From positions 2,666,001 to 2,730,000 of the forward strand of contig CAUYUJ010000001.1 in the NCBI GenBank assembly GCA_963575745.1: a DNA stretch of 64,000 nt, given 5' to 3'. The number at the start of each line of letters is the position of its first letter. The first letter of the stretch is position 1. This DNA is from Prorocentrum cordatum. Taxonomy: Eukaryota. The notes beneath the pieces were generated by a model. It saw only the letters and a program-made list of their open reading frames with translations, did no database searches and was not told the DNA's origin. The position numbers were made by a program, and so were the translations under genes. This document shows, piece by piece, positions 27,186 through 58,204 of this stretch.

Positions 27186-27418
27186 TAAGCATCAGGGTCG
27201 CAGGAGGCGAGGAAGGCTCGACCGAAACGCCTGGCTCGCCCGTTCCGCCGGCCTCGGGGCGCGACAGGGAGGAGTTATCTATCAGGAAAAGGAATGGAGG
27301 AGGAGGTTGGGGAGGAGGAGGAGGAAGAGGAGGAGGAGAAGGAAAGGGAGGAGGAGGGGGGGGGAGGAGCAGGAGGAGGGGGAGGAGGAGGAGGACGACG
27401 AGGAGGAGGAAGAGGAGG

Positions 27419-27440
27419 TCCGTAGCCATTTTGGCTCAAG
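27419..27440 (+). other. Exact dinoflagellate spliced-leader exon (DinoSL) at LINE-A 5' end
   Basis: TCCGTAGCCATTTTGGCTCAAG matches the DCCGTAGCCATTTTGGCTCAAG consensus; no GT SL-intron follows, so it is not an SL RNA gene. Confidence 0.97.
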
Positions 27441-27462
27441 TCCGGAGCCGTTTTGGCACAGG
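27441..27462 (+). other. Degenerate relict spliced leader in tandem behind the intact SL
   Basis: TCCGGAGCCGTTTTGGCACAGG, 18/22 identical to the SL directly before it. Confidence 0.85.
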
Positions 27463-27479
27463 ACCTGACCTTACTGGCA

Positions 27480-28868
27480 ATGGGGAGCAGCGGCCCCCAC
27501 AGTGCCCCTCGTTTGCCTGGTCAGACGAGGACTTCTGGCGAGTTTTGTGAGCTCCTGTTGGGGCATTCCCTTCGGCATCACGTCCCGATGGTGCCAGCCC
27601 CTTTCCCGCATGCGCCCTGGGTCAAGCCGCAGGGTGATGGCGAGGGATGGTCTATTGCGAGAGGTCGCCGCGGCCAGGCTCAAGTCTCGAGCTTCGCCTG
27701 CCCATCCTGCGGTTGCAAGAAGAGCAGCGTCAATGCCTCGCATTGCAAGCACTGTGCTCACCCTCTCCCTCGTCTGCTTCATGGTGATGGGCCACCAGCT
27801 GGTGGTCGCTGGGCCACAGCTGGCCCCCCTGGCTTCTGGTTCGGGAACGGCTTCAGCGGCAAGGGGCCCGTCTTTCAGAACTTCGGGGGCAAAGGGGGAG
27901 GCCGTGGGCCCAGTGGCAAGAGCAGAGGCAAGGGCTACTTCGGAGGCGACCAGACGATGTGGGATGTGCTGGCCCGTCAAGGAGATGAGCGTGCTGGCGG
28001 AGCAGCAGGAGGCCCCCCTCCTCTTCCTGTGGGACCAGTGCCTGCCATCACTGCGTCCGAGGCCAAGGCCTTGGGCGAATCGCTCCAGAAGGCGGGTGAT
28101 GTTGGAGCGGCTGCCAAGTACCTTGACATGGCGAAGCATCTGGAAGCGGCAGCAAAGCCCGTGGTTGTCTCGGACCACACGCGTATGCAGCAGGCTCACT
28201 CCATGGTGCGCAAGCTGGAGAAGCAAATGGAGCAGCAGCTGGGCCGTGTCACGAGGCTTCGGGAACAGCTCGTCGAAGCGGAAGCTTCGCTACGTTCGCT
28301 TCGTGTTCATCTCGACCAGGCGGATTTGGACTACAAGCAGACGCTGGCGGCCTTGCAAGGGCCCCCTCAGCCCACGGGGGAGCGGACTCAGTCGATTTCT
28401 TTCAAGCTCGAGGATTTGGTGGCAGGCGATGTGGATTTTGCCAAGATCATCGACTGCAGCCACATGCTGGAGGATCTCACGACGGACAATGATGTGGACG
28501 TGGCCGACCTCGAGCAGTTCCAGAAAAGGAAGGGGGACCTCTCGTCTGGCGCCACCAAGTTGGCCAGGGACCTCTTCGCCCAGGTCGCATCGCATGCCAA
28601 GGCTCTTCGTGAACAGCATGAAGCTCATCGACTTCGTGTGGTGGCTAAAAAGCGGAAGACCACGGAGGGTGAGGTTGTCGGAGGTTATCCTGAGGATGCT
28701 GCTGCCGCGGCTGGGGCTGGAGCAGGGGCGCCTTCTGAGGGTGCCAAGGCCGCTGCGTCAGCTGCGGGGACGGCCGAGGCTGGCCAGGCCTCGGCTGCTC
28801 TGCAAGAGGACATTCGAGCCAAGGCCGACCAGGCTCTCAAGGACTCTGAGCCCCCTGCTGCGTCTTAG
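27480..28868 (+). CDS. LINE-A ORF1 (putative nucleic-acid-binding/chaperone protein)
   Basis: Intact ORF from the first ATG after the SL; C-x2-C...C-x2-C zinc finger (FACPSCGCKKSSVNASHCKHC), GKG-rich segment, coiled coil (MVRKLEKQMEQQLGRVTRLREQL). Confidence 0.8.
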   Translation: MGSSGPHSAPRLPGQTRTSGEFCELLLGHSLRHHVPMVPAPFPHAPWVKPQGDGEGWSIARGRRGQAQVSSFACPSCGCKKSSVNASHCKHCAHPLPRLLHGDGPPAGGRWATAGPPGFWFGNGFSGKGPVFQNFGGKGGGRGPSGKSRGKGYFGGDQTMWDVLARQGDERAGGAAGGPPPLPVGPVPAITASEAKALGESLQKAGDVGAAAKYLDMAKHLEAAAKPVVVSDHTRMQQAHSMVRKLEKQMEQQLGRVTRLREQLVEAEASLRSLRVHLDQADLDYKQTLAALQGPPQPTGERTQSISFKLEDLVAGDVDFAKIIDCSHMLEDLTTDNDVDVADLEQFQKRKGDLSSGATKLARDLFAQVASHAKALREQHEAHRLRVVAKKRKTTEGEVVGGYPEDAAAAAGAGAGAPSEGAKAAASAAGTAEAGQASAALQEDIRAKADQALKDSEPPAAS

Positions 28869-31800
28869 AGGCGGCGGGGGGCAGGAATCTGAGGGCGGGG
28901 ACCCAGGTTTGAAACCCTCCTGGGATCTTTTTAATTTTTTAGCCTCGAGAGTGTCTGTGATAGGCTCCAGGTCTCAGGCCTCTGGGGTTCGTCTCTCCAA
29001 GCGTTTAAGGTGTTTGTTTGGGTTTTGCCATCTCGGGGGCTCGTTCGACGCCCCGCTCTCCTGTGCTGAAATTCGGGTGCCCCCAGACAGCCCAGGAGCC
29101 TCTCGCATTTCCTCTCTGCCTCTGCCCGGTGCGGACGTGAAGCAGCATTGCGTGAAGGCTGGCGAAGCTCTGCGTGAAGGTTCTCCAGTCGCACGATTGC
29201 CGCAATCCGATGCCCTTTTTCCTGGTGCCAGCTCCGCCAGGGCCTGGTCCTGCATGAGGCCCGTCCCAGATGACGAACGGCTTCCAGAGACCTCAGCCCC
29301 CACGCCAGCTGCCCAGGGTGCTGCCGATGGCTGCATCAGGCTTGACGAGGGTCTTCTCGTGACTACAGTGAACGCCAACTCCTGGGGCACCCTCAAGAAC
29401 TTTCTTTCCTCGGCCAGTTCGCATGTGGTTATCGCTCAGGAACATCGGCTTAAAGATCCCTGTGCGCTGGACCAGGCTTCGAAGTCGTCCAAGTTTCTGG
29501 GATGGAAAACGCTGTGGGCGTCAGGACTGCTTGGAGAGGGAGGTGGCGTCTCGTCGGGAGTTTGCGTCTGTGTTCGAGATGGACTTGGGCTTTTCGAAGC
29601 TGCTGCGAATTCTGTTCTCGTTCCTGGTCGAGCTATCGCCACCATGGTTCACGTTCCTGGTTGTGCCCCGTTTTGTGTCTGCAGCCTCTACTTGGTCCAC
29701 AGTGAAGGTCTCTCGGATTCCACTAGAGAAACGTTGAGGGTTGTCGGGGAATTTTTAGACTCCGTGGGTTGTGAGTTTATCGTGGGGGCCGATTGGAACA
29801 TGGGTCCCGAGGTCATCGAAGCTTCCGGGTTTGGCAAGAAGCTTAGGGCCAGTACGATTGTTCCTGAAGGTCACACCCACTTCCCCAGCAGGGGCCCTCC
29901 TGTTCGGTTTGATTTTTTCGTTGTGTCGGAGGCTCTCAGCCTCTGTCTCAAGAGTGTCTATGTTGAAGGTGACTCCAGCATCACTCCACATCGCCCAGTG
30001 TCGCTTCGTTTTCACAGCTCCCTGGGCGATCTCAAGGTTCTTGCCTTCCGCCAGCCCCCTTCGTTGCCCGTGCTCCCTCCTGTTGGCCCTGCGCCCAAGT
30101 CTGGCGACTGGAGTGCTGCGCTTGGTTTGGCCGAAGAAGCGTTTGGGGCGGTCTCGAACGGGGATGGGGAAAAAGCGCGCAGGCTTTTGAGCATCGGATA
30201 CAAGTTTTGGGCTGATGCTGCGGAAAAAGACCTTGCCAACTTCCTGGGGGCCGATCTCAAGGTTTTGGGGACTAGGGGCAAGCGGCCCCAGGTTTTCTGG
30301 AAGTCTGTGCTCCGCCCAGCGGGGCGTGAGAACGATCCAGGTTTACGGTCTATCTCCTGGCTGTGTAATCAGCTTCGTGCAGTTAGGTGCTATCTCTCGG
30401 ATTCGGTCTTGCAGGAGGCTGGGCGACAGGTGCTCAACTCGATCCTCCAGCCTCCGTCGGCCGTGGCGGCGCAGGAGAGCTCTGAGTTCCACTCGCTCTT
30501 CAAGGCCAGTGCGGCCCTAGCTAGATGCGCCTTTTCTCCTGTGCTGGATCCTGAGCTCGGCTCTGATCTGGACGACCTGATCGATCAGGTAGCTCAAGCC
30601 GTCGCCGCTGCTAGGGTCACCGCTGCGAATGCCTCGCGGCTAGAGTGGCCAGAGTGGGTGCGTACGGGCATTGATGCTGGTGGTCGCAACGCTCAGAGGG
30701 CCATCAAAGACCCTGAACCCTGGAAACCCTCCACCACCTTATCCAGATGTGGTACCATCGTTTGCGACCCAGTGTCTTTACTGCAGGCCGAAGGCGACAA
30801 GTTTGCGTCTATTTGGGGCAATGACAAAGGCATTGGTGTGGGCCATGACCTTTTGCCCCATGGGCGCATTTTAGAGCCTGCCGAGCTCCGATTTTTTCCA
30901 AAAAGTATCGTTCCTCCTCGGCGGCGAGCGTTGATGGATTCCACTGTCGGCATTTTAGTCTTCTCCCCGATGAGGCTTTGCATGCCCTGGCCCTGTGGTT
31001 TGCTGTTTGGGAAGCCACTGGCGAGTTGCCCAAGCAGCTCTCGTGGGTTCTGATGGCCTTGTTGGCCAAGCCGACGGGTGGGTTCAGACCCATTGGGGTC
31101 TTCCCGAGCCTGTACCGCCTTTGGGGTCGCGCCCGTCGTCAGGAGGCTCTTCAGTGGGAGCTCACCTACCCCAGAAAGTACTGGGCTGCTGGGGCCAACA
31201 GAGGAGCGGGGGATGTTGTTTGGAGGCAGGCTTTCAGGGCTGAAGCGGGCACTCGCAAGAGAGAGGTGTCGGCTTCCATTTTCTGGGATCTCAGGAAGTA
31301 CTATGAGCACATTAATCTGAGGTACCTATGGCAGCAGTGCGTGCACTTTCATTTCCCGTTACCTCTGGCGAGACTGGCCATCAGGGCGTATTCGTGTGCT
31401 CGCTTTCTGGCCCTCGGGGGCATCATCCAGGGCCCTTATTTCGTTTCCAAAGGTCTGGTGGCGGGTTGTTCTTTTGCGACCAGCCTCATTCGCGTTTTTG
31501 CCATGCAGGCTTTCGATGAGGCCCTCGCTTCGGTTCCCAAGGGCCCAGGAGCTTTGACCGACTTCGACGCCTACGTCGATGACCTTAGTCCCAGCTGCAC
31601 GGGACCTGCTAAGGTTGTAGTTGCCAGCCTCACGGCGGGAGCCAAGACGCTCCACCGAGCCATCACGGCGACGCTCGAGTGCAAGCTGGCCATGGACATA
31701 GTGGGAATGATCAGCAACTCCCCCGATGTTTCCAGAAAACTCACTGAGGCCTTGGGGCCTCTTGTTGGACCAGCCTGCTCTCGGGTTACCAATCTGGGTT

Positions 31801-33869
31801 CCGATTTCACTGCGGGCAGACCTGTTCGCTCCAAAGGGCGCTCGGCCAAATTGAAATCTAGAGCTGCGGCTGCTCTGAGGAAGACCAAAAAGCTGAAGGG
31901 CCTCCATCAGGTCCTGGACCGCAAGTGTTTGAAGGTCTTCGCGGCGGGACCGATGGCGGGAGCCGTGTACGGCTCTGACTTGTATGGGATTTCGGGCAGG
32001 GAGCTTCTTAATCTCAGAAGGATGGCCATGTCGACGGTTAAGCCCAGAGCCCAGGGCAGGTCCCTCAGTGTCTTGTGTCTTCTCTCGGATGACCCTACTT
32101 GGAGGGGCTGTTGCGCGCCTGTCATCCGCTGGGCCAAGGAGGTCTGGACCCTGCACACTCATGGGTTTCCCTGGACGTTGAGCTGGGCCGAACTAAGGGA
32201 CGGCTGGAGCGCTGTCTTTGCGTCGGATGACCACTCGTGGTCCAAAGTGGCTGGGCCGATTTCTGCCCTGCGTATGACCTTGTACAGGCTGGGCTGGACC
32301 ATGCCCAATTTTTGCGCCTTTGTTGACGACTTTGGCCGCGAAATCTCCTTGACCCTGTCGTCCCCTAAGCTTGTCAAGCTTTACTGTAAGGAAGCTCATC
32401 TTCGGGGTCTTGAAAGGGAGTCGGGGGACAAATACGGTTGTGGTTTCAGACTTTGCTGGGACGTGGTCAAACAGCTGATGTCTTCCAGGAAGGTTTCTAG
32501 CAAAACCAAAGGTTGGATCCGAGCTCAGGCCACGAGAGCTTGCTGGACGGCAAGCGATGTGGCAGCTGCAGGGTAAGACTTTTCTGACAAGTGCGCGCTG
32601 TGCGGCAAGGACCGCGACACCCTCTTCCACAGGCTCGTCGTGTGCCCGTCTGTGTAGTCTGTGAGGGAAGCGGTGCTTGACAAAAGTATTCAGAATGAAG
32701 CGTTGGAGCTAGGTGCAGATCATGTCGACATGTGTCTGTACTTGCACGGTGCCGTCAAACATCCTGGAGATTATGCCCCACCGCCACTCACTGAAGGAGG
32801 TAATAGCCTGGAATGGTTCGTCGATGTTCTTCCTGACCCTGGGGACCTTGCTGCTGCTCCCTCTATTCCTCCCTCCGCGGGGCTCTGGGGGCACCTCTTC
32901 ATGGATGGCTCGTGCCATCGTCATGTAGTGTGTGAACTCTCTAGGGCTGGCTGGGCTGTTGTCATGGTTTCATGCTCGGGTGAGCGCCTCGGGGTTTTGA
33001 ACGGTCCTCTGTGGGCCCCGTGGCCTCAGACGCCCCAGGGTGCCGAGTTTGGGGCCCTGGCCTGGACCGCTGTGCAAACCGAAGGCCCTGCCCTGTGTTA
33101 TTCTGATTGTGCTAATGTGGTTCATTTAATGAACCTTGGAGCTGCCGACGGCGTCAGCGCCAGGCGGCAGTATGCGGGCCAGATCATTCAAGCTAGGCAC
33201 TACTTCGGCACCAACCTAGTCTCCTTAGATAAGGTTGAGGCCCACAAAGATGCGGACGAGGAAGGGCTCTCCTCGCACGAGAGATTCGTGCGAAGAGGGA
33301 ACTTCTTCGCCGACGTCTACGCGAAGGAGGGTGCAAAGCAGCACCCCTCCATGTCCCCAACGGAGCAGGAGGCCCTCGATCACCAGATTCTAGTATCAAG
33401 GGCGATCTTGCTTGCGGGAGCGGAGCTCTTGCCACTTTGGCCGAAGTTGGAGTTTCGAGGTCTGTTGCGCGGCCCTCCGCTGCTCGACTCAAAGGCCCCC
33501 ATTTTAGAGCTCGTCCACGACTGGTCTCAACAAGGTTCCTCCTGGCGGTGTCGTGTGTGTCTGCGCGGTTCCCGTGCGAAGGCCAAGCCGCTGGGAGGAA
33601 CGTGCCCTGGGCAATCCCGTTTGGACCAGGGTCTGTTGGAGAGACTAGGCCATCGAGTCATTGCCTTCCCTTGCAGTGACAATGGCCACCTGTACTTGTG
33701 CATGTCGTGCAAGTTTTATTCTAGCGATGAAAAGGTCCTGGGTTTGTCCCGCAAGTGCGGGCCCCCCACGGAGACAGGTTTCAGAAACTTGAGACGGCTC
33801 CGAAAAGGACTGCACCCCGATACGAGGGGTGTCTCGGTCGATATCGACGAATTCATCCCGCTTTTATAA
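28869..33869 (+). pseudogene. LINE-A ORF2: APE endonuclease, reverse transcriptase, zinc knuckle, RNase H, C-terminal Cys/His motifs
   Basis: APE: TVNAN, AQEH, GADWN, RFDFF, PHRPV. RT: RPIG, WDLRKYYE, GLVAGCS, YVDD. Knuckle: CALC...H...C. RNase H: FMDGS, GAE, YSDC, KVEAH, GNFFAD. Lesions: 1-nt loss in the T run at 30892-30897 and stops at 32574-32576 (TAA) and 32655-32657 (TAG). True start unresolved because the frame is open back to 27502. Confidence 0.92.
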
Positions 33870-34008
33870 TTACAGGCAATTTGTTTGCCCTCAGTGCGCC
33901 TCTGGCTGTTGGAGCAAGCTGTCACTTTCAGAGGCATGAATGTTGCATTCAAACGAAAGAGGAAGAGGAGGAGGAACAGGGGGGGGAGGAGGAGGGGGAG
34001 GACGACAC

Positions 34009-44902: not shown

Positions 44903-45526
44903 CATCTCGGCAACCCACGTAGGTGCCACGATTTCAGCGCGGCAATTTCTACGTAGCGGCCGGCTGACACGCACTGGAAGTGCAGGTGTTCTTCTGCACC
45001 CAGCCCAGACAGAAGAGACCGCCAAGGGGTGCCGCGCCTCCAACACTGGTCACCAAAACCACGGCGACCTACTATCATCGTCCTACCAGAAGAAATACTG
45101 AACACGGGACGGAGGGGCTTTTTCAGCCTCAGCCACGAAGAAGTTCAACGCTCTAGATCCAAGGAACGGCCCGAAAACCAGAGGCCTCCTGGGCCCAAGG
45201 CTCTGCTTCTTTCAGCGCCTTGACTCTAATCCACCCTCGTTTTCTGCCTCCCCCCAAAGTTCGCTGCAAATCGGTTTCCTTCCTACCCCGTTCCTGCTCG
45301 GGGAAGACGGGCTACCGCGAGCGGACGCGGCGCAGCGACTTGGGAGCGCGGGACAGTCGCAGTCGGTGTAGGTGTTGCGTCGGCACCACGGTGGGTAGGA
45401 AAGAAGCCGAGGAGGAGCAGGAGAAGGTAGAGCCTGAGAAGGAGTCGAGCGTCGAACATGAAATGAGAGGCGGTGATGAGTATGCTGTGATGATGAGGAT
45501 AATGAGGAAGAGCAGGAGGAGGAGGA

Positions 45527-45557
<31 letters not shown>

Positions 45558-46949
45558 GGAGGAGGAGGAGCAGGAGGAGGAGGAGGAGGAGGAGGAGGAG
45601 GAGCCCAGCGTGCCGAGGGGTTCGTCAGCCGCGCTAGCCACGGGGCGACCGCGCCTTGTCGACACCGAGGCCGACGAGAGGCGAGGCGGGTCGTGCGGGG
45701 GCGGGCCTGGACGAAGCAGCTGCACAGGTCGGCGTCGTTGCCGACGGGGCGGCCAGCGGCCGAGACATAGTTTCAATCAGAGGCTGGTGAGAGGAGAGCG
45801 GTGGCGGCGGGAGCCGCGGCTGGCGGAGGGGGAGGAGGACAGGCGAGACGGCAGAGGGCAACAGCAAGGCAGTCTCGAGCGGAGGAGGGGACGGGGAAGA
45901 GATGGGGGCGGTCGAAAAGATATAGCGGCGAGTGCGCCCAGCAGCTGGGGTGCACGAGATTCGGGTGGGTGGGTCAATCCTGAGACCGTGGGGAAAATTC
46001 AGAGAGGCGTGGTCACTCGATGGGTCGGGCGACGGGGTGACGGCGGGAAACAGGGAAGGCACAAACGCGGAGGGAGGGGGGGCAGGCGGGGGGCAAGCAG
46101 AGGCAGGGGCAGAGCTCAACGGAGCGAGGGACGAAGGGAGAGAGGAGATGGAAGCTCGCTCTAATATAGGCGCAGGATGCACGTGCAAGAGAGGCGAGAT
46201 GACAGGATGAAAAGAGAAAATGTTCTCGACTGGGGGCTCATGACGGGAAAGCGATCCCGCCGCGGTACTGGGAGAGGCAGGATATAGCCTCTGGGAGCAC
46301 GGAGACGCCGAGGGAGCACAGCAGGAGGCAATCCGCGAGGAGGAGGCCGCCACCCATGGAGCGGTCGGGGCAATCGACGACGTCAGAGTAGCCGGAATCG
46401 ATGAGCAGGGCGGGCGCGGGGAAGACAAGGCCATAGGCGCCGTTGACAGTCCGTGAAGCGAGCGGCCGACCGCAATCGACACCACAGAGCTGGATGGCAG
46501 CGCCTCGCAATTTACTCGAGCCTGGGGCGGCGGGCTCGAGGAGCACCCACGGCCAGGACTTTGCGATCTGACACCGACGGAGGGGAAAGGCCGCGCCTCG
46601 AAATTTACTCGAGGAGCCTGGGAAGGCGGGCTCGAGGAGCACCCGCCACCAGGACTTTGCGATCTGACGCCTTCAGCACCAAAGACGGGAAGAGACCGAG
46701 CCAGCTCGTCGCAATTTGCTCCAGATGCCTGCTCGGGCGGGTTCGAGGGGCACCCCCTGGCAGGACTTGGCGTTCTGACAGCATGCACCACCGCATCAGG
46801 ACGGAAGTCGAGCATGACGAGGTCGTCCGAGTCGTCCGCATCCTGCGAGGAGCAGGGAGATGATGATCCAGACGTCGCCGAAAGCGGGGGCATGGTCGCA
46901 CTGCAAGAAGAGGAGGAGGAATAACTCGGCGACGAAGATGAACTTGAGG

Positions 46950-49900
46950 AGGAGCTTGCAGGTCGGGGCACACGAGGATGCCAGTGGGGAGCAAGTGAAG
47001 CTCGTTCCTCCTCCGACGCACGAGATGGGTGCGCGAGACGCATCGCCCTCACTCCCGCCAGAGCGCAGGCGTGGATCTGCTGTGCAGAGAGCGGCCACTC
47101 ACGGATGGTGCGGGCCTCGTTGTACATGTTGTACGCGGCCGTGAGCAGCGAGAACGAGGAGAACGACGGAGACGCCAGACCCCAGCGAGAAAACCATTCG
47201 AGCGGGAAAGGACGTGCCAAGGCCCGTCTGAGAGCACGGTGCATGGGTGGGCATCTCGCATAGTGACGGAGGGGGTCGAATCGCTGCATGCATCCGAACG
47301 CACAAGGTCTCTGCGTGATGGATGCCACAGCCAAGTGCGCCCATCGGATGGCCCTGGGCGCCCCCCACCTCTCCAGCTGCACCCACGCGTCGAGACCGAA
47401 GGTGCCGAGAGGAAGACGAAATACTTGGGCCAGCACTGCCAGCTCGGGTTGAAGGACCGAGCGCGGGATCCAGGAGAACTGTGCAACGTACGAGAGAGTA
47501 GTAACAGCACGGGAATTGTATAACTGGGCGGACTGGCTGGCGTGAGTGGTGCCACGGCCAATAGCTTGAGCCCGCAAACGCAGCTTGGTGAGCGGGTCGG
47601 CCCACGAACGATCGGGAGCGGCCCCAGGACCCAACCAGATGCCCAGGTAGAGCAGACAGTCGACCACCTCAAAGGAGGACCACTCGGGGACCCAGTAGGA
47701 GATCTCCTGGAGGACGCGGGTGGCGAGCTCGGGGGAGAAGGGCCCGCAGAGAGGGACCGCCTTGCACTTGCCGGCCTTCAACGCGAGGTTGGCCATGCCA
47801 GAGGCCTTGGACATCACCCCGAAGACACGAACGAGGTCGGCAATCGCGGAGAGCGCGCCCCCAATGTCGTCCGCACAGGCCCGCACGAGGCCAGACAAGG
47901 GAAGCTCAACCACTTGGACCAGCTCAGAGAGGAAGGCAGCCGTACTGAACGCAAATGACGAACCCGAGAGAGCGCAGCCCTGAATGATGCCGCTGTCAAT
48001 CCAATAAACATGTTCCAGAGTCCCCTGCACCATAGCAACCCCGTCGATCGCAGCGCACAGGAAAGCGACGAAGCCGAGGAAACGATCAGGGAGCCCGAGA
48101 GTCCGAAGAGCGAGGGTCATGAAGCCTTGGTTCAGGGACGGGAAGGCCTGGCCGAAGTCCAGGGAGTACAAGAGCGGGATATCCAGGGAACCATGGGGAA
48201 TGACCGAGAGCATCCTGGCCGAGGCGTCGAGCTCGATGATATTCTCACCGAAGTTGCGGCGGGGGATGAACCCGCGCTGGCAAGAGGGGATGAGGTCCAG
48301 GGCAGGGCGAACAGCACGATTCATCGTCGCAGAGATGAGCTTGATGTCACAATTCCTAAGACCGAGGACACGAACTTTGTCTGGGGCCCGCTCGCAGCCC
48401 CCTGATTGCAACTCGTTGTCAGTGACATTTTTCGGCAGGAAGATCTGAATAGTGTCCGATGCAGAGGCGAACAGGAACTGGCCATCTCCGATCCACTCGA
48501 GAGCACCCAGAGAACCTCCACAGCAATAATTGGGTGAGCCTGCCACGCAGCATGTGGAAAAGCGTCGGGGCCAGGAGCGGAATGTTGAGCGCCACGAATA
48601 GCAGCACGGAGCATGGCACGGGAATGTGGGGGGAGATGAAGATCATCAGCACGGGGCAGGAGACGATGGAGGTAGGGGCGAGCAGCGTCTTCATCCCAAG
48701 GCTTCTTCCTGAAAATGGGGCCCCAGTAGTCGGTGAGGGCCGTCAACCGCTGGGGCGGGTCGGAGACAGTCTCGCCGCTCGCAAGACGAACACGCGAGAG
48801 AGAGACCCGACGATTCAGAGGTGACCACAATCTCGCTCTGCGCTCCAAGGCTCTGATCTGAAGTCTGATTTGAGCACGGTCCCCCAGACGACGACGGCGG
48901 GCTTCCAATTCCTCCATGGCGGCGGCCGCCGCATCAGACTGGATCTCATCGACCCAGGCATGGAACGAAGGAGGGTGCATCAGCTCAACCTTGCCAGCCC
49001 GCGCAACGATCATGTCCACAGCCACGCGATGTGATTCCTGAAGGCGGCGTGCAAGTGGAACGTCTTGACGCCAGACAACTCGTGCCAGTGCTCGTGCAAG
49101 CTGGAGAAGGGTGCGGGGATGATGAGGGCGAGCACGGAAGAGACGATCCCGAACTTCGGCAGAGGCGATTTTCAGCAGCTTTTTGTAGTGCTCGAGCTTG
49201 ACGGGCGGGGACATCTGGGACCAGTCGGAGGCTTTGATGAGGCCCTCGAGGCGCTGCTTGAACGCTGGCTCGTGGAAGATGCGCTTGGGAATGGCTCGCT
49301 CGCCCAGAACCCAGGGAGCCCTGGAGGCGAGAGAGATCAGCACGGCGGCATGGTCCGAGACGCATCTGCCCGACACTAACGCAGCCGAATCGACAGTCGA
49401 CGCCTGAACCACAAGTTGACACATCTGCCATCCCGAAAGCGGGCAAAAGAATCGATCGATGGACGATTCAGCATTCTCAGCACGCTCATAGCGCGATGGG
49501 GCGTCACTTTCAATCTCAAGCAGCGGGGCAAGAGCATCCCGCCACTGCGGAGCGCGGGCGTGGTGCTGCCGCGCGCTCCGCCGCGCAGCCGCTGCGGGCA
49601 TATGCAGCAGGACGGACTCGTGCGGGGAAAAATTGAAGTCGCCATTGACCGCGACCATGCGCGAGTCTGGTGCCCGCTCAGACGCAGCCCGAGCAGCACG
49701 GATATCTCGTGCAACACGAGCGACTTCTGCCAAAGAAAGACCATGACTGTGCACGTTGTACACCTGAAGGCACACATCTCCCAAAGATATATCAACCCGA
49801 AGAACGCGCCCAGGAACGAGAGGGACAGGCGGATGGGCGACAGCACCAGGATGGAGGGGAGGAAGTACGACTGCGACGCCCCCACGGATGCTGCCGCCAG

Positions 49901-50170
49901 CGTCAGCGTCACAAAAGCCAGAACGCACAGTAAGATCACGTGCCACTGTGCCCAGGAAAGAGACAAGTTGGCGATGATCCTGGTGGACCTCCTGGAGGGA
50001 GAGGGCCGTCTCAGACAGGCGGAGCTTGATGAGGTACTGGCGCTTCAGATCTGCGTTCTCTCCTCCAGCTTGCAAGAGCGCCCTGGCGTTCCAGGAGACA
50101 AAGCGAAGCGGTCTCGCCGATGAGGAAGAAGACGGCGAGGAGGAGCGAAAGAGGGGGCACGCGCTAAAGA
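46950..50170 (-). pseudogene. LINE-B ORF2: APE endonuclease + reverse transcriptase + C-terminal zinc knuckle
   Basis: APE: VSWNAR, LQEVH, GDFN, SIDRFF, SDH. RT: SAPGPD, QRGF, LDFGQAFPSL, GIIQGCALS, CADD, YLG. Knuckle: CAFGC...H...C. Frameshift near 48500. Confidence 0.9.
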
Positions 50171-51555
50171 GACCACTGGCTGGTCTCGACTGGGTGGGAG
50201 ATCTCCTTGGTCGCCTCGCGGAGGCGGGCGACGTCCATGTGGTTGTGCTCGAGCTTCGGGATGTCCCAGTAGATGACGGGGGGGGCGCCCCCCGAGGCGA
50301 CCTCGATCTGCATGGCCTTGTCCCAGCCAACCAGCAGGGCGCCACGCTCACGGTCGGAGTAGAGCCGCTTACCAAGGTAAGCCTCTTCCACCAGTCTGCG
50401 CGCTCGACGGAGGACGATATCCTGCTTGATCTGCTTGGGGCTCTTGTCGGGGCCGAGGTGGATGCGGCAGTGCACATCTCCAGGCGGGGTAGTCCAAAAT
50501 TATTTCCATTCTTTGCCTTCGCGTAAGTTGGCAAGGACACGGTCGACCTTGCGGGAAGCGACCCCGACGGGGCCCTTGAACTTGATCTCGAATCGCTTGC
50601 ATGGGACCGTGCCTTTGGCAGCGATCTGGTAGTCGTTGTTGGCACTCTCAAAACCGATGGAGGACAGCCAGGGAGCCAGCACCTCACGAACACTTTCCAA
50701 TGACGAGGGGCGCTGGGAGATAGCCACCACCATGGTCGTGTCAATGTCGCGGTTGAAGCCAGCGGGTACTTGAGACTGGGGGCGAGGACGAGCCTCAGCG
50801 AGAGCGAGTTCTTTCCTGAGCTCGGCCATCTCCCGACGGATGTCCACGAGGTCCTGGTCGTGTTTGGCGATGCTGGAAGTGTGGGCGTCGATGACGCCCT
50901 TCTGCTGGTCGATCTGGGCCTGCAGCCTGCGCGACAGGGAGTCCAGCTGCGGTGTGGCGACCTTGCGCACATCGGCCTCGAGGGTCTCGGTGTGGGCTTG
51001 AACCAGGGCTCGGAGGTTCTCCACAGCAGCGAGCAGGGGCTTGTTGCTCTCGGCGGCGGTCTTGGCAATGGAGTCGCCAAAATCCTCTTTGATGGAGTCA
51101 AACTCGGCACGGCACAACTGGCGAATGAAGTCTTCGTAGCCCTCGGGCATCTCGTCGTCAAGGGCGGGAGGCAGCTCAGCATCAGCGTCGTCATGAGGAG
51201 CCTCGCCAGGGAGGGCACGACGTTTCTGCGGATTGGGGTCGGTGAAGCGAGACGGAGCAGCTCCTTTGCCTTGAACTTTTCCTTTGCCGGACTTGACCTC
51301 CTGGGACGGGAAGGTCGGTGCATCCTCCAGCTGCTCGAGCTGCGAGGTCGTGAGCTCATCACCGCGAGGGCTCGCCACCATCACAGCAAGTTGACTGGTC
51401 GAGGGAAGAGACGGTGCGGGGGCCCAACTCCCGCGGTAAAGGCACAGAAGAGCGATCAGAAGACTGATGAGCGGGCTGGAGAGTGGCCTCAAAGCGGAAC
51501 CTCCCTCGCGCTCAGGTGTCGCCCCGAAAGACCCGCGGTCGTCGGGACGGTTCAT
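50164..51555 (-). pseudogene. LINE-B ORF1 (coiled-coil protein) with one premature stop
   Basis: ORFs 50500..51555 and 50164..50475 are in the same frame, split by TAA at 50500-50502; coiled coil SRRLQAQIDQQK...DIRREMAELRKELALAE; ATG candidates at 51555 and 51381. Confidence 0.75.
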
Positions 51556-51558
51556 GTC

Positions 51559-51580
51559 CTTGAGCCAAAATGGCTACGGA
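51559..51580 (-). other. Exact DinoSL at LINE-B 5' end
   Basis: Plus strand reads CTTGAGCCAAAATGGCTACGGA, the reverse complement of TCCGTAGCCATTTTGGCTCAAG. Confidence 0.97.
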
Positions 51581-52297
51581 GGAGGAGGAGGAGGAGGAGG
51601 AGGAGAGGGGAGGGGGGGAGGAGGAGGAGGAGGAGGAGGAGGAGGAGGAGGAGGAGGAGGAGGAGGAGGAGGACGAGGAGCAGGGGATGTATGAGAACCA
51701 ACTGCAACGGCAACCGACGCTGCCAGCGGCATGCCCTATGATACCGGCAGGACGACGAAAACGAAGTTTACGACATTTTAGACCAGAGAAACCTCGGTCT
51801 GCTTTTCGGCCAACTCTTGCGCAAACGTTCGGCCAACTTCGCCCGTTTAGCCCCGCGCACCTACGGGTACTCAGGCCAGGGCAGCTCAGCGGAAAACCGC
51901 CGAAAGCAAGTTGGGCCGAGGCGAAGACCAGAGGTCCCTTCATGATCGGCACAACTGTAAAGACAAGCAGCTCAGCAGGCGGGGGGGGTGGACATCGCAG
52001 CAGCGGCACTGGCGGTGTCAGCCAATGCCCAGCCATCGGCGGCCACTGCTGCGGCACCAGCGGCACCACAGCGGCACCGGCGGCCCCACTGATCTTTGAA
52101 TTCCGACGTCACGAAACAAGCTTAACATCTCACAAAACCTCGACCAGAGCACTGGACCCCATCATTCCCGCGGCAATTTTCGTGCTCGATCGATCCGTGA
52201 GGGTCCCGTGGCCAGATACACGGCACCCGCCTGGAAGTATCTTGGCGAAGGACCCAAACATATGCAGCTGTGAGCACCGCATTGTGGGTACCGCTCT

Positions 52298-52870
52298 CGG
52301 TGGAACCCCCTATGCGGCCACGATCCTCATGAGGGGTGTGCCGCAATGGGCGGGGGGACGCATGCAAACCCTGCCGCTGGGGCCTTCGGTGGAGCTCCCT
52401 ATGGGGCCACGATCCTCGTGAGGGGCGTGCCGCAATGGGCGGGGGGACGCATGCAAACCCTGCCGCTTGGGCCTTCGGTGGGACTCCCCATGGGGCCGCG
52501 ATCCTCATGAGAGGTGTGCCGAAATGGGCGGGGGCTCGCATGCAAACCTTGCCGCTGGGGCCTTCGGTGGAGCTCCCTACGGGGCCGCGATCCCCGTGAG
52601 GGGTGTGCCGAAATGGGCGGGGGGACGCATGCGAACCCTGCCGTTGGCCTTCGGTGGAGCTCCCTATGGATGGGGCCGCGATCCCCGTGAGGGGTGTGCC
52701 GAAATGGGTGGGGGGACGCATGCGAACCCGGCCACTGGGGCCTTCGGTGGAGCCCCCTATGAGGCCACGAAACGCTGTCCTTGGTGGCGGTGACGCATGC
52801 GGGCCCTCGCACCGGAGCCTTCGGTGGAACTCCATATGGGGCCACGAAACGCTGTCCTGGGTGGGTGAAA
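52298..52870. repeat. ~89-bp tandem repeat, ~6.5 copies
   Basis: CGGTGG...CCC at 52298, 52387, 52476, 52565, 52652, 52745 and 52822. Confidence 0.93.
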
Positions 52871-53197
52871 CGCAGGGAAGTGACGAGGCGGATGGGATGA
52901 GGGAGGGGGGGGAGGAGGAGGGGGAGGAGTGAGTGAGCGGGACGCGGGGCGCTGTCTTTTCAAAACGAAAACCCAACACCAAAGTTGGTTGGGAAAAACA
53001 TTGCGACGCCCGGACCCCTGGGTACCGCTGCGGCATCGGCGGCACCACGGCCGCATCGACGGCCGCTGCGACTGCAGCCCTGCGGCCACAGCGGCGGCGG
53101 CCCTGCGCTTTGCAGCCGGCGGCGGCAGCGGCGGCGGGTGGCGGCCCTGCGGCTGCGGCAGCCCTGCGGCAGCGGCGGCGGCAACCGCGTGGAGGGC

Positions 53198-53323
53198 CTC
53201 GAGCTGTGCCGCCCTGCTGCGCTCCCGCGCCAGCTCGGTGCCATCCGACTGCGCCGCCGCCTGGGCGCGTGCCACCGCCGCGCGCAGGGCCTCGACCTTC
53301 TTGTCGCGCTCGCCGACCTGGGC
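53198..53323 (-). CDS. Putative host exon (AQVGERDKKVEALRAAVARAQAAAQSDGTELARERSRAAQLE)
   Basis: 126 nt, GAG|G acceptor after a C-rich tract, GAG|GC donor; shares the ELARE...LE motif with the 60.4 kb exon. Confidence 0.7.
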
Positions 53324-54487
53324 CTCCAGAGGGGGGGGGGAGCAGGGAGATGAAGGCGGGGATGAAGAGGAGGGGGGCAAGGGGAGGAAGAGGAGGAGGG
53401 AGGAAAACGACGGGAAGGCGGGAGGATATAGAGGAGTTGGACGAGTTGGAGACAGGGAGCGCCAGGAGTGCCGAGCGAGCCTGCGGGGCCCCCGAAGCCC
53501 GCCGAGGGGCCGATCCTGCCTCTCAACTTTGCCGCGACGCGCTCCCCACAGCCTGGGCCGGCGACAGCCGGCCGTGTCGCTCGGGCCCCTGGTCCACCAC
53601 AAGCGGCCGGTGGTGGGGGTGCGCACGGTGTCCCTAGCTCTTCGCTCCTTTGTGGAGCCCCCTGGGGCCGTCGGGGCCTCGTGAACGGTGCTCTGGGCCT
53701 CCGTGGGAATCCGGGGGACACCTTGGGCCAGGGACACCTCTGGCAACGCCAGGGAAGGGTTCGAGATCCCCGAAACCCGCGGGCTGAACAGAAGCTGCCC
53801 GCCAGAGGTCTGGGCGCCGGGCTGTCGGCCCGGGCCCCGCAAGCCGAGGGGGCCGCGCGGAGGGGCGCGGGGGCGAGCGAGAAGGGGGAGCAGAAGCAGC
53901 AAGACAAGAGTCGAGAGAATCAGACAGAAGCGGGTCTGGGACAGGGGGCCGCCCCCAGGGGCAATCCTCCGACCCCCGGGGGGTCGAGATCCATGGGGCC
54001 CGCGGACGGAACCTACCCGCATCGTGCCCAACAGGCGACTACCAAGAAGAGCGCTCCATAGAAAAGTGCGCATTGAGAGATCTGCAACACTCTTGAAGGA
54101 TTCGCAGAACCATGTCGGACCACATCCAACGCTCCCCATTCACGCGCAGACTATCGCAGCTCAGACCGCAAAGCGGGTGTTCTCCTCCTCCTCCTCCTCC
54201 TCCTCCTCCTCCTCATCATCATCATCATCATCATCATCCTACTTCTCCTGGAAAAAATCCACTCCGATGGGCCCTCCCTGGGTTTTTTGCACCGTGGAAC
54301 CCCTCCCCCCCCTTTCCCCTCAGTAGCGTGCGATCCTCCTTCTCCTCCTCCTCCTCCTCCTCCTCCTCCTCCTCCTCCTCCTCCTGCCCCTCCCCCTCAT
54401 CCGCCTCCTCCTCGTCCTCGTCCTCCATCTCTTTCTCCTCCTCCCCCTCCTCCTCCTCCTCCTCCTCCTCCTCCTCCTCCTCTTCCT

Positions 54488-57603
<3,116 letters not shown>

Positions 57604-58204
57604 TCTGGATCGGAAGGGGGAGACGCCAAGGACGCCCGACGTAGATGGCGCGGTTGGGCTTGCGTTCGACTCTGCAAGACTTTGGATGATATCGTCGGCG
57701 GCTTCCGTGGAACGCGTGGTGGAACCGAGCAGTCTTCTCAGCGGGCAAAGCTTTTGGCTTTGATAGATGTAGAGCAGTCAGCAACTGGATGTGTACTCTG
57801 TTTCTCTGATCGGTGGCCTGTGGTGGAAGGCTTCAGAAACATTGTGAGGCCTTTATGAAGTCTGGTATGCTGGACGTGTGGGTTCGACCTTGGGATGTCT
57901 TGGCAAGCAGGCAAGGTGTTGTGAACCTCAAACGGACCAAGAGCCACCCACCGAGAACCCATGCCTGCGCCCTGCATTTAACTAACCACTACCGAACAGC
58001 TCTTGAATGGAGCTGCTGACGCCTGCGCTGGGGAAGAAGCTAAGAGAGGTGCCGTTCCTCCCGAATGAGCCGCCATCACACGCCAAAATGTTGGGCACCG
58101 ATGTTTTGATTATCCCAGAACGACCCTACCTAGGAGTTGGAGCCCCGAGGAGATCAATATTAATAGTAACGGTAAACGCAGTCCTCCTCCTTCTCCTCAT
58201 CGTC

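What the first reader, a model, noticed from the sequence alone, without database searches (positions are those of the whole stretch)
27502..28868. LINE-A ORF2 frame (+1) is stop-free across all of ORF1: possible overprinted dual coding
Seen: the endonuclease frame is open from 27502 to 31053, which includes ~455 codons overlapping ORF1 in the +1 frame, with an ATG at 27610. A +1 stop arises whenever an ORF1 NTG codon is followed by A, or NTA by A/G, so total absence over this length looks non-random. LINE-B shows the same thing independently. Inference: ORF2 may be made by leaky scanning from a cap-proximal AUG (long overprinted N-terminus) or by a +1 frameshift, rather than by re-initiation after ORF1.
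Basis: partly seen in the sequence, partly recalled or inferred. Interest (0 to 1): 0.78.

Follow-up and report, generated by a model that had tools for sequence, protein, structure and literature searches.

The report
LINE ORF2 frame open across ORF1
Two unrelated dinoflagellate LINE retrotransposons keep the reading frame of their second gene free of stop codons all the way back through their first gene, more than calibrated shuffles allow, hinting at an unusual way of translating the reverse transcriptase.

Summary
In LINE-A the endonuclease (ORF2) frame has no stop from 27469 to 31050. That covers 466 codons over ORF1 in the +1 frame, and the first ATG of that frame is at 27610. LINE-B (minus strand, unrelated by BLASTP) has the same +1 arrangement, open over the last 292 of about 350 ORF1 positions.

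It exceeds chance under nulls that fit five ORF2 control segments (60 stops seen, 59.6 expected):
- Synonymous permutation: P about 0.004-0.007 (A); run-length P 0.027 (B).
- Local codon-order shuffles: 19 of 40000 (A) and 31 of 20000 (B).

The signal is narrow and directional. Leu/Val/Met are followed by an A-starting codon 9 of 110 times, against 10 of 39 for Phe/Ile. All nine of those contexts use C-ending codons.

Against coding, the +1 peptide looks like ordinary off-frame sequence, has no relatives outside the family, and rests on small counts from two dead copies.

My best reading (about 0.45) is that selection keeps the frame open because ribosomes enter it near the 5' end, most likely at the +1 AUG 22 nt after an ORF1-frame AUG. 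Chance plus composition remains at about 0.35. Family-wide DNA, Ribo-seq or proteomics would decide.

The parts
27419..27440 (+). Complete 22-nt dinoflagellate spliced leader (DinoSL) at the 5' end of LINE-A
   Evidence: Read; 15-nt core found twice in the window; matches the DinoSL printed in PMC7245778 and PMC6050394
27441..27462 (+). Second, degenerate DinoSL copy (18 of 22 positions by eye)
   Evidence: Sequence; not scored by a tool
27466..27468 (+). Last stop (TGA) of the ORF2 frame upstream of the open run
27588..28868 (+). LINE-A ORF1 (frame 0, 426 codons plus stop). In this copy it is extended to ATG 27480, which is private to the copy
   Evidence: 27481 T>G in nearly all family contigs; 81% identical to a Prorocentrum cordatum protein; weak coiled-coil Pfam hit only
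27469..28868 (+). The finding: stop-free +1 (ORF2) frame over all of ORF1, 466 codons
   Evidence: shuffle tests
27610..27612 (+). First ATG of the ORF2 frame, 22 nt after ORF1-frame ATG 27588; next ORF2-frame ATG at 27637
   Evidence: the Met of fragment protein P0007 aligns here and that of P0005 at 27637
28869..29253 (+). Stretch between the ORF1 stop and the first later ORF2-frame ATG. The ORF2 frame is open and has no ATG; the other two frames have 7 and 4 stops
   Evidence: P 0.061 by dinucleotide shuffle; family indels here are net multiples of 3
29254..31053 (+). ORF2 from the conventional ATG: endonuclease-like region and linker. A private 1-nt deletion near 30894 ends the frame at 31051
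   Evidence: 25% identity to P0003, which has weak Exo_endo_phos and RVT_1 hits; no Pfam hit of its own
30849..32576 (+). Reverse-transcriptase part of ORF2, shifted into frame 0 in this copy
   Evidence: RVT_1 E 4.2e-5, 23.8 bits, below the 29.6 cut-off; the family majority has one extra base after 30894, which joins EN and RT in one frame
32658..33869 (+). C-terminal part of ORF2, after in-frame stops at 32574 and 32655
   Evidence: no Pfam family
51559..51580 (-). Complete 22-nt DinoSL at the 5' end of LINE-B
50500..51555 (-). LINE-B ORF1 (351 codons from ATG 51555; internal in-frame ATG at 51381)
   Evidence: AF2 model of 51381-50503 shows a 115-residue helix followed by a small alpha/beta domain
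50503..51380 (-). Stop-free +1 (ORF2) frame over the last 292 positions of LINE-B ORF1. The last +1 stop is at 51383-51381; the first +1 ATG is at 51359, 22 nt after ATG 51381
48321..50477 (-). LINE-B ORF2 from the conventional ATG 50477 (22 nt after the ORF1 stop): endonuclease and linker
   Evidence: Exo_endo_phos 26.9 bits against a cut-off of 24.5; sequence
45634..48642 (-). LINE-B reverse-transcriptase part, in another frame in this copy (frame switch near 48500-48520)
   Evidence: RVT_1 31.0 bits against a cut-off of 29.6; sequence

Best explanation
Both elements are 5'-complete, spliced-leader-capped LINEs of a Prorocentrum cordatum-like dinoflagellate. In both, ORF2 lies in the +1 frame of ORF1. 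I think selection keeps that frame free of stops through ORF1 because some ribosomes read it from near the 5' end straight into ORF2. The most likely entry point is the first +1-frame AUG, which lies 22 nt after an ORF1-frame AUG in both elements (A: 27588 then 27610; B: 51381 then 51359), reached by leaky scanning. On this reading ORF2p carries a long arginine/serine-rich leader (about 548 aa in A, 294 aa in B). The only constraint on that leader is that it has no stop. What is shown: the open frame, its statistical excess, and the specificity of that excess. What is inferred: that the frame is translated, and how ribosomes enter it.
For: (1) Stop depletion holds under three nulls. Synonymous permutation gives A 0 vs 3.8-3.9, P 0.004-0.007, and B run P 0.027. 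Resampling with ORF2 codon usage gives A P 0.0021-0.0035 and B P 0.016. Block codon shuffles give A 19/40000 and B 31/20000; combining these last two by Fisher's method, worked by hand, gives about 1e-5. (2) The nulls are calibrated: five ORF2 segments (3013 codons) show 60 +1 stops against 59.6 expected. (3) Among the five alternative frames, only +1 is specially depleted in the ORF1s. (4) Codon level: Leu/Val codons before an A-starting codon end in G in 0 of 9 cases, against 43 of 90 elsewhere in the ORF1s (p 0.0047). There is no G|A avoidance after other codons (40 of 93), and none in ORF2 (33 of 89 vs 163 of 441). (5) Protein level: Leu/Val/Met are followed by an A-starting codon 9 of 110 times, against Phe/Ile 10 of 39 (p 0.0098) and all other residues 121 of 607 (p 0.0028). 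Controls give 95 of 570 vs 33 of 195. (6) The effect is directional. The reverse adjacency and the i,i+2 spacing are not depleted. Reversing the codon order gives 7 (A) and 5 (B) +1 stops instead of 0, while controls stay alike. (7) In B, four +1 stops fall in the 58 codons upstream and none after; the last stop is 22 nt before the first +1 AUG. (8) On the family consensus of A, AUG 27610 is the second AUG of the mRNA, and AUG 27588 has C at -3. (9) None of the 6 majority variants shown in the overlap creates a +1 stop. (10) A and B have no detectable similarity.
Against: The whole signal rests on small counts: 12 codon contexts, and 9 risk contexts where roughly 20 were expected. It comes from two single copies, both dead: each has a frameshift in ORF2, and A also has two in-frame stops. 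The +1 peptide has the composition and codon log-likelihood of any off-frame translation. Its only database matches are five 67-113-aa fragment ORFs of the same family. Counted over all of B's ORF1, stops are not depleted (4 vs 5.2-6.5, P 0.15-0.31). Both elements have a conventional ORF2 AUG: B 22 nt after the ORF1 stop, and A at 29254, about 35 codons before the endonuclease-like region. In B, scanning ribosomes would have to pass two AUGs that have G at -3. The shuffle nulls may not capture the sequence grammar of coiled-coil or low-complexity proteins, because the controls are enzyme domains. To my knowledge no LINE with a fully overlapped ORF1 has been described (searches found none). The finding was picked by a reader who had noticed it.
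Confidence: 0.45

Rival explanations
1. Chance plus composition. ORF1 is poor in T at codon position 2 and in A-starting codons, so only about 4-6 +1 stops are expected. Their absence is then luck, or a side effect of coiled-coil or low-complexity protein grammar. ORF2 starts conventionally (A at AUG 29254, B at AUG 50477) by some form of reinitiation or internal initiation, as in other bicistronic LINEs.
For: The expectation is low: 3.8-6.8 stops in A and 2.8-5.5 in B. The window holds 61 stop-free frames of >=250 aa; I sent 31 of these to Pfam, and apart from the three LINE-B frames only one gave a (weak, sub-threshold) hit. The +1 peptide looks like plain off-frame sequence. Conventional AUGs exist. 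Over the whole of B's ORF1, stops are not depleted. The stretch 28870-29253 is open with P of only 0.061. The finding was selected by eye.
Against: Calibrated shuffles give 19/40000 and 31/20000 for two unrelated elements. The depletion is confined to the +1 frame, to the ORF1s, to Leu/Val/Met rather than Phe/Ile, and to the i to i+1 direction. Helix grammar alone does not predict that pattern.
Confidence: 0.35
2. The constraint is real, but ribosomes enter the frame by +1 ribosomal frameshifting within ORF1. This could be programmed near the 5' end or spread over many sites. It would yield ORF1(N-part)-leader-ORF2 fusions, by analogy with gag-pol fusions of LTR retrotransposons.
For: The statistics are the same as for the best explanation. 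ORF2 is +1 to ORF1 in both elements. A's ORF1 ends UCU-UAG-A, a Ser codon followed by a stop, with the +1 frame continuing. This recalls antizyme-type sites (recalled, not tested). In A there is no ORF2-frame AUG for 128 codons after the ORF1 stop.
Against: A shift at the ORF1 stop would not require the upstream frame to be open, so it does not explain the finding. No shift site shared by A and B was seen; B ends AAA-UAA-U. No frameshift-stimulating element was looked for. +1 frameshifting has not been shown for any LINE in the passages I read.
Confidence: 0.12
3. ORF2 is expressed from a separate, shorter mRNA made by spliced-leader trans-splicing at an internal acceptor, or by internal ribosome entry. 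The upstream open frame is then irrelevant.
For: Both elements carry a DinoSL, so their RNAs are trans-spliced. In dinoflagellates trans-splicing is thought to resolve polycistronic RNAs (passages).
Against: There is no internal DinoSL relic in either element at up to 2 mismatches. This model does not explain the stop depletion. The loose-end table was truncated, so SL-joined internal ends could not be checked.
Confidence: 0.05

Closest known systems
Bicistronic APE-type LINEs and their unconventional ORF2 translation (L1, SART1 UAAUG coupling, TART +1-frame start after the gag stop)
   Same: ORF1 is followed by an EN-RT ORF2 on one RNA, and ORF2 is in another frame. How ORF2 is initiated is an open question in the field (review passages).
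   Different: In the cases described in those passages the ORFs are separated, or overlap by only a few bases. Here the ORF2 frame is open, and apparently kept open, across all of ORF1 (A) or 83% of it (B), starting beside the ORF1 AUG.
+1-frame overlapping genes reached by leaky scanning in RNA viruses
   Same: A second AUG in the +1 frame lies shortly after the first, and the alternative frame lacks stops beyond expectation. For these viruses I saw only the title and abstract of PMC2832772 in the listing.
   Different: Viral overlaps encode a separate accessory protein that ends within or near the overlap. Here the overlapping frame runs on into the main enzyme, and the overlap shows no sign of selection on its own protein sequence.
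gag-pol fusion by +1 frameshifting in LTR retrotransposons (Ty1/Ty3 type; recalled, with general background in PMC5009743)
   Same: The downstream enzyme ORF is in the +1 frame of the upstream structural ORF.
   Different: Those overlaps are short and have a defined shift site. No such site was identified here, and the open stretch is 290-466 codons.
DinoSL-tagged retrogenes of dinoflagellates
   Same: A complete or relic DinoSL sits at the 5' end of a retroposed copy, and tandem relics occur. LINE-A has a full copy plus a degenerate copy.
   Different: Here the tagged unit is the retrotransposon itself rather than a host gene copy. I found no paper describing this (searches; listings and passages only).

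Membership tests
APE-type non-LTR retrotransposon (LINE) | Reverse-transcriptase domain | tested here: met
   RVT_1: B 31.0 bits (cut-off 29.6); A 23.8 bits, E 4.2e-5, below the cut-off
APE-type non-LTR retrotransposon (LINE) | AP-endonuclease domain N-terminal to the RT | tested here: inconclusive
   B: Exo_endo_phos 26.9 bits (cut-off 24.5). A: no Pfam hit; 25% identity to P0003, which has a weak Exo_endo_phos hit of 17.7 bits; AF2 model unusable, pLDDT 36.6
APE-type non-LTR retrotransposon (LINE) | Dispersed multi-copy family without terminal repeats | tested here: met
   For A, 3312 contigs of run X1 were laid at >=80% likeness. There are no other internal matches in the window apart from tandem repeats upstream. 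B's copy number was not tested.
L1-type ORF1p (coiled coil + RRM + CTD, Pfam Transposase_22) | Sequence or fold match to ORF1p | tested here: not met
   No such Pfam hit at E<=1 and no PDB sequence hit. The B model has a 115-residue helix plus a beta-alpha-beta-beta-alpha domain, but no Foldseek match at E<=0.001. The architecture resembles ORF1p, but membership is not shown.
Overlapping gene reached by leaky scanning | Alternative frame open and depleted of stops against a calibrated null | tested here: met
Overlapping gene reached by leaky scanning | Alternative-frame AUG is the next AUG after a weak-context first AUG | tested here: inconclusive
   A: 27588 (C at -3) is followed by 27610 as the next AUG, but the window copy has an extra private AUG at 27480. 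B: two ORF1-frame AUGs with G at -3 come first. Context rules for dinoflagellates are not known to me.
Overlapping gene reached by leaky scanning | Openness and suppressed synonymous change conserved across relatives | not testable with these tools
   No genome is held. The variant table shows 40 of 1505 places. The JGI scans were empty.
Overlapping gene reached by leaky scanning | Evidence of translation in the alternative frame | not testable with these tools
   No Ribo-seq or proteome search is available here
Programmed +1 ribosomal frameshift | Defined, conserved shift site with a stimulator | not tested
   I only read the ORF1 ends: A UCU-UAG-A, B AAA-UAA-U. No comparison across copies was possible.

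The most novel reading that the evidence does not exclude
Prorocentrum LINEs make ORF2p by initiating at a 5'-proximal AUG in the +1 frame, 22 nt after the ORF1 AUG, and translating through the whole of ORF1 as a highly basic, otherwise unconstrained leader of about 300-550 aa. Selection against +1 stops has shaped both the codon choice and the amino-acid order of ORF1. This would be a third solution to the LINE ORF2-translation problem, besides reinitiation and stop-start coupling. It would also be one of the longest same-strand overlaps in a eukaryotic element.
Probability: 0.38. Interest if true: 0.85.

Novelty: new variant of a known kind. Interest (0 to 1): 0.68.

Why it matters
How LINE ORF2 is translated from a bicistronic RNA has been an open question for decades (review passages). 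If the ORF2 frame really is read from the 5' end through ORF1, these elements offer a natural and easily tested alternative mechanism. They would also show that an overlap can be maintained by selection against stops alone. That costs only about 5 codon choices and a few residue adjacencies.

There are practical consequences too. The DinoSL at the 5' end marks the exact mRNA start of full-length copies. That would allow a genome-wide test in dinoflagellate assemblies. It also affects how ORF2 should be annotated in these repeat-rich genomes.

Tried and rejected
- **Own genome:** not held, so no family-wide DNA test was possible.
- **JGI metagenome scans:** ORF1-A and an EN alignment returned pattern matches, but no relative was confirmed.
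- **Protein searches:**
  - The +1 peptide within the 1194-aa frame gave nothing.
  - ORF1-A gave one P. cordatum protein.
  - The ORF2 region gave one chimeric P. cordatum model and one distant ENA protein.
  - The exhaustive search with the +1 peptide gave only five 67-113-aa fragment ORFs of the same family. Because only open frames are called as ORFs, these are not counted as support.
- **Sequencing runs:** no RNA holder was listed. Reads were laid as contigs only, and the variant, indel and loose-end tables were truncated: 40 of 1505, 12 of 66 and 24 of 320 rows shown.
- **PDB sequence searches:** ORF1-A, EN-A and RT-A gave nothing below E 0.01.
- **Structure prediction:** the AF2 model of the A endonuclease region was unusable. 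The ORF1-B model had no significant Foldseek match.
- **DinoSL scan of IMG/VR, meant to find more SL-capped LINEs:** 119 stretches matched, but none of the 67 ORFs of >=400 aa that I sent to Pfam (of 72 listed) had an RT or EN family. They are giant-virus-type genes or RNA-virus-like contigs.
- **Earlier findings of this scan:** nothing.
- **Idea that the shared frame pattern 0,+1,0 (ORF1, EN, RT) is programmed:** rejected for A, because the family majority has one more base after 30894 and so a continuous EN-RT frame. For B it is presumed to be a private indel as well (not tested).
- **2A-like NPGP motif before EN:** none seen by eye in the translations.
- **General avoidance of G|A codon junctions, or of stops in all frames:** rejected.
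- timed out and was rerun. One control was mis-framed; this was corrected from then on, and the resampling was redone. One search failed because of in-frame stops and was not repeated.

Full report
**What is in the window.** The region holds a 6.5-kb LINE on the + strand (LINE-A).
- It begins with an exact 22-nt dinoflagellate spliced leader at 27419-27440, followed by a degenerate second copy. The leader sequence is as printed in PMC7245778 and PMC6050394 (passages).
- ORF1 is in frame 0 and stops at 28866-28868.
- An endonuclease-like region and linker lie in frame +1, and an RT lies in frame 0 (RVT_1, E 4.2e-5).

A second LINE (LINE-B) lies on the minus strand.
- It has an exact spliced leader at 51580-51559 and ORF1 at 51555-50500.
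- Its ORF2 is again in the +1 frame, with Exo_endo_phos and RVT_1 both above the Pfam cut-offs.

ORF1-A is 81% identical to a Prorocentrum cordatum protein, and an ORF2 piece is 98% identical to another. The window's composition fits that genome's reported 59.7% G+C. LINE-A and LINE-B share no detectable similarity in ORF1 or in the endonuclease region.

**State of the two copies.** Contigs of four public runs were laid on LINE-A. They show a high-copy family: 3312 contigs in X1, mostly 80-95% alike. Three family-majority differences matter here.
- The majority base at 27481 is G, so the window's ATG at 27480 is private. ORF1 of the family more likely starts at 27588.
- The majority has one extra base after 30894, plus two substitutions. 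This puts EN and RT in one continuous frame, so the frame switch in the window copy is a private deletion.
- Listed indels between 28374 and 29249 are net multiples of three.

LINE-A also has in-frame stops at 32574 and 32655. LINE-B switches frame near 48500-48520. Both are therefore dead copies of families whose ORF2 is +1 to ORF1.

**The observation.** The ORF2 frame of LINE-A is open from 27469 to 31050 (1194 codons). Of these, 466 lie over ORF1, and the first ATG of the frame is at 27610. In LINE-B the ORF2 frame is open from 51380. That covers the last 292 +1 codons of ORF1, and four +1 stops lie in the first 58 codons.

**Is it more than chance?** I ran three kinds of null. "Expected" is the mean number of +1 stops in the shuffles.

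| Null | LINE-A | LINE-B |
|---|---|---|
| Synonymous codons permuted, protein kept | 3.8-3.9 expected, P(0) 0.004-0.007 | P(run >=292) 0.027 |
| Codons resampled with ORF2 usage | 5.0-5.2 expected, P 0.0021-0.0035 | run P 0.016 |
| Codon order shuffled within 15-, 30- or 60-codon blocks | 6.3-6.8 expected | 5.3-5.5 expected (run region) |
| Run-length tests from the 30-codon block shuffle | 19 of 40000 | 31 of 20000, using all of B's ORF1 |

These nulls fit the five ORF2 control segments: 11, 15, 12, 10 and 12 stops seen against 11.2, 14.8, 11.8, 9.7 and 12.1 expected. Combining the two block-shuffle values by Fisher's method (by hand) gives about 1e-5. The two synonymous-only values give about 2e-3.

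**Specificity of the signal.**
- Of the five alternative frames, only +1 is specially depleted in the ORF1s. The +2 frame is mildly depleted everywhere, controls included.
- Leu/Val codons before an A-starting codon end in G in 0 of 9 cases, against 43 of 90 elsewhere in the ORF1s (p 0.0047). Other codons show no G|A avoidance (40 of 93), and neither does ORF2.
- At the protein level, Leu/Val/Met are followed by an A-starting codon 9 of 110 times. Phe/Ile give 10 of 39 and all other residues 121 of 607. ORF2 controls give 95 of 570 against 33 of 195.
- The opposite adjacency and the i,i+2 spacing are not depleted.
- Reversing the codon order gives 7 and 5 +1 stops in place of 0 and 0, while controls change little.

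This is the pattern expected if +1 stops themselves are avoided. Helix grammar or base composition would not obviously give it.

**What speaks against a coding overlap.**
- The +1 peptide has the amino-acid make-up of any off-frame translation of these elements: R, S, P, L and W rich, and D, E, N, Y poor. Its codon log-likelihood is also that of an off-frame.
- It has no relatives except five short fragment ORFs from copies of the same family. These are biased towards open frames by the way ORFs are called.
- The counts behind the statistics are small.
- Counting all of B's ORF1, stops are not depleted (4 vs 5.2-6.5).
- Both elements have a conventional ORF2 AUG (A 29254, B 50477).
- The stretch 28870-29253 is open with P of only 0.061.
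- The window is rich in long open frames in general: 61 of >=250 aa.
- I could not obtain DNA of other copies or other families, or any evidence on translation.

**Mechanism.** If the constraint is real, ribosomes must enter the +1 frame near the 5' end of ORF1, because avoided contexts lie along the whole overlap. The layout fits leaky scanning.
- On the consensus mRNA of A the first AUG is 27588 (C at -3). The next two AUGs, 27610 and 27637, are both in the ORF2 frame.
- In B the last +1 stop overlaps ORF1-frame AUG 51381, and the first +1 AUG follows 22 nt later. This is the same spacing as in A.
- The product would be ORF2p with a very basic leader: A has 99 K+R against 25 D+E in 548 aa; B has 52 against 5 in 294 aa.

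Alternatives are +1 frameshifting within ORF1 and chance. A shift at the ORF1 stop (UCU-UAG-A in A) would not explain the upstream openness.

**Comparison with what is known.** The review passages I read describe LINE ORFs as separated by a spacer, or joined by a stop-start overlap, and they treat ORF2 initiation as unresolved. Full overlap of ORF1 by the ORF2 frame did not turn up in my searches, in which I saw listings, abstracts and passages only. +1 overlapping genes reached by leaky scanning are known from RNA viruses (listing). There, however, the overlapping frame encodes a separate protein.

**Verdict.** I put about 0.6 on a real constraint, of which about 0.45 is for 5'-proximal initiation, and about 0.35 on chance plus composition.

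Noticed in passing
window 27419-27462 and 51559-51580: Both LINEs start with a complete 22-nt DinoSL joined directly to the flank, and A has a second, degenerate copy. LINE RNAs are therefore spliced-leader trans-spliced and copied to the very 5' end. I found no paper saying this for LINEs themselves.
   Followed up: partly
window 27361-27418, 33958-34005; 51581-51660, about 45520-45600: LINE-A is flanked on both sides by (GAG)n-like repeats. LINE-B is flanked by (CTC)n in its own orientation. This is the same microsatellite type in opposite orientation relative to the element, which suggests insertion into such arrays or microsatellite-type tails.
   Followed up: no
window 27588/27610 and 51381/51359: In both unrelated elements the first +1-frame ATG lies exactly 22 nt after an ORF1-frame ATG, and both ORF1-frame ATGs are followed by GTG. 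This may be coincidence.
   Followed up: partly
window 30889-30905: The private frameshift of LINE-A sits in a T6/A5 homopolymer stretch where the family majority reads differently. An assembly error in the homopolymer cannot be excluded.
   Followed up: partly
L001-L119 (IMG/VR), e.g. L007, L045, L063, L088: The exact 21-nt DinoSL occurs in 119 stretches of IMG/VR. Most are AT-rich (15-30% G+C) contigs from giant-virus bins. Their ORFs downstream of the leader carry giant-virus-type families: ribonucleotide reductase, topoisomerases, MutS, Bro-N, DUF4116. The open frame often starts within 50 nt of the leader. This looks as if spliced-leader-tagged cDNA copies sit in giant-virus genomes, or as if these are viral insertions in dinoflagellate DNA.
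   Followed up: partly
L049 177-197; L067 5299-5319: Two higher-GC IMG/VR contigs with RdRp-like (GDD) polyproteins carry a DinoSL near their 5' side. They may be endogenous or transcribed copies of a dinoflagellate RNA virus.
   Followed up: no
window, whole: There are 61 stop-free frames of >=250 aa, many overlapping one another and lying in simple repeats, e.g. 52122-54139 and 54077-57832. I sent 31 of the 61 to Pfam; apart from the three LINE-B frames, only one gave a (weak, sub-threshold) hit.
   Followed up: partly
P0001 against window 28600-28800: The P. cordatum protein P0001 follows ORF1-A and then ends with about 28 residues that match the +1 frame of the window. That gene model, or that copy, therefore jumps from frame 0 to +1 after a deletion.
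   Followed up: no
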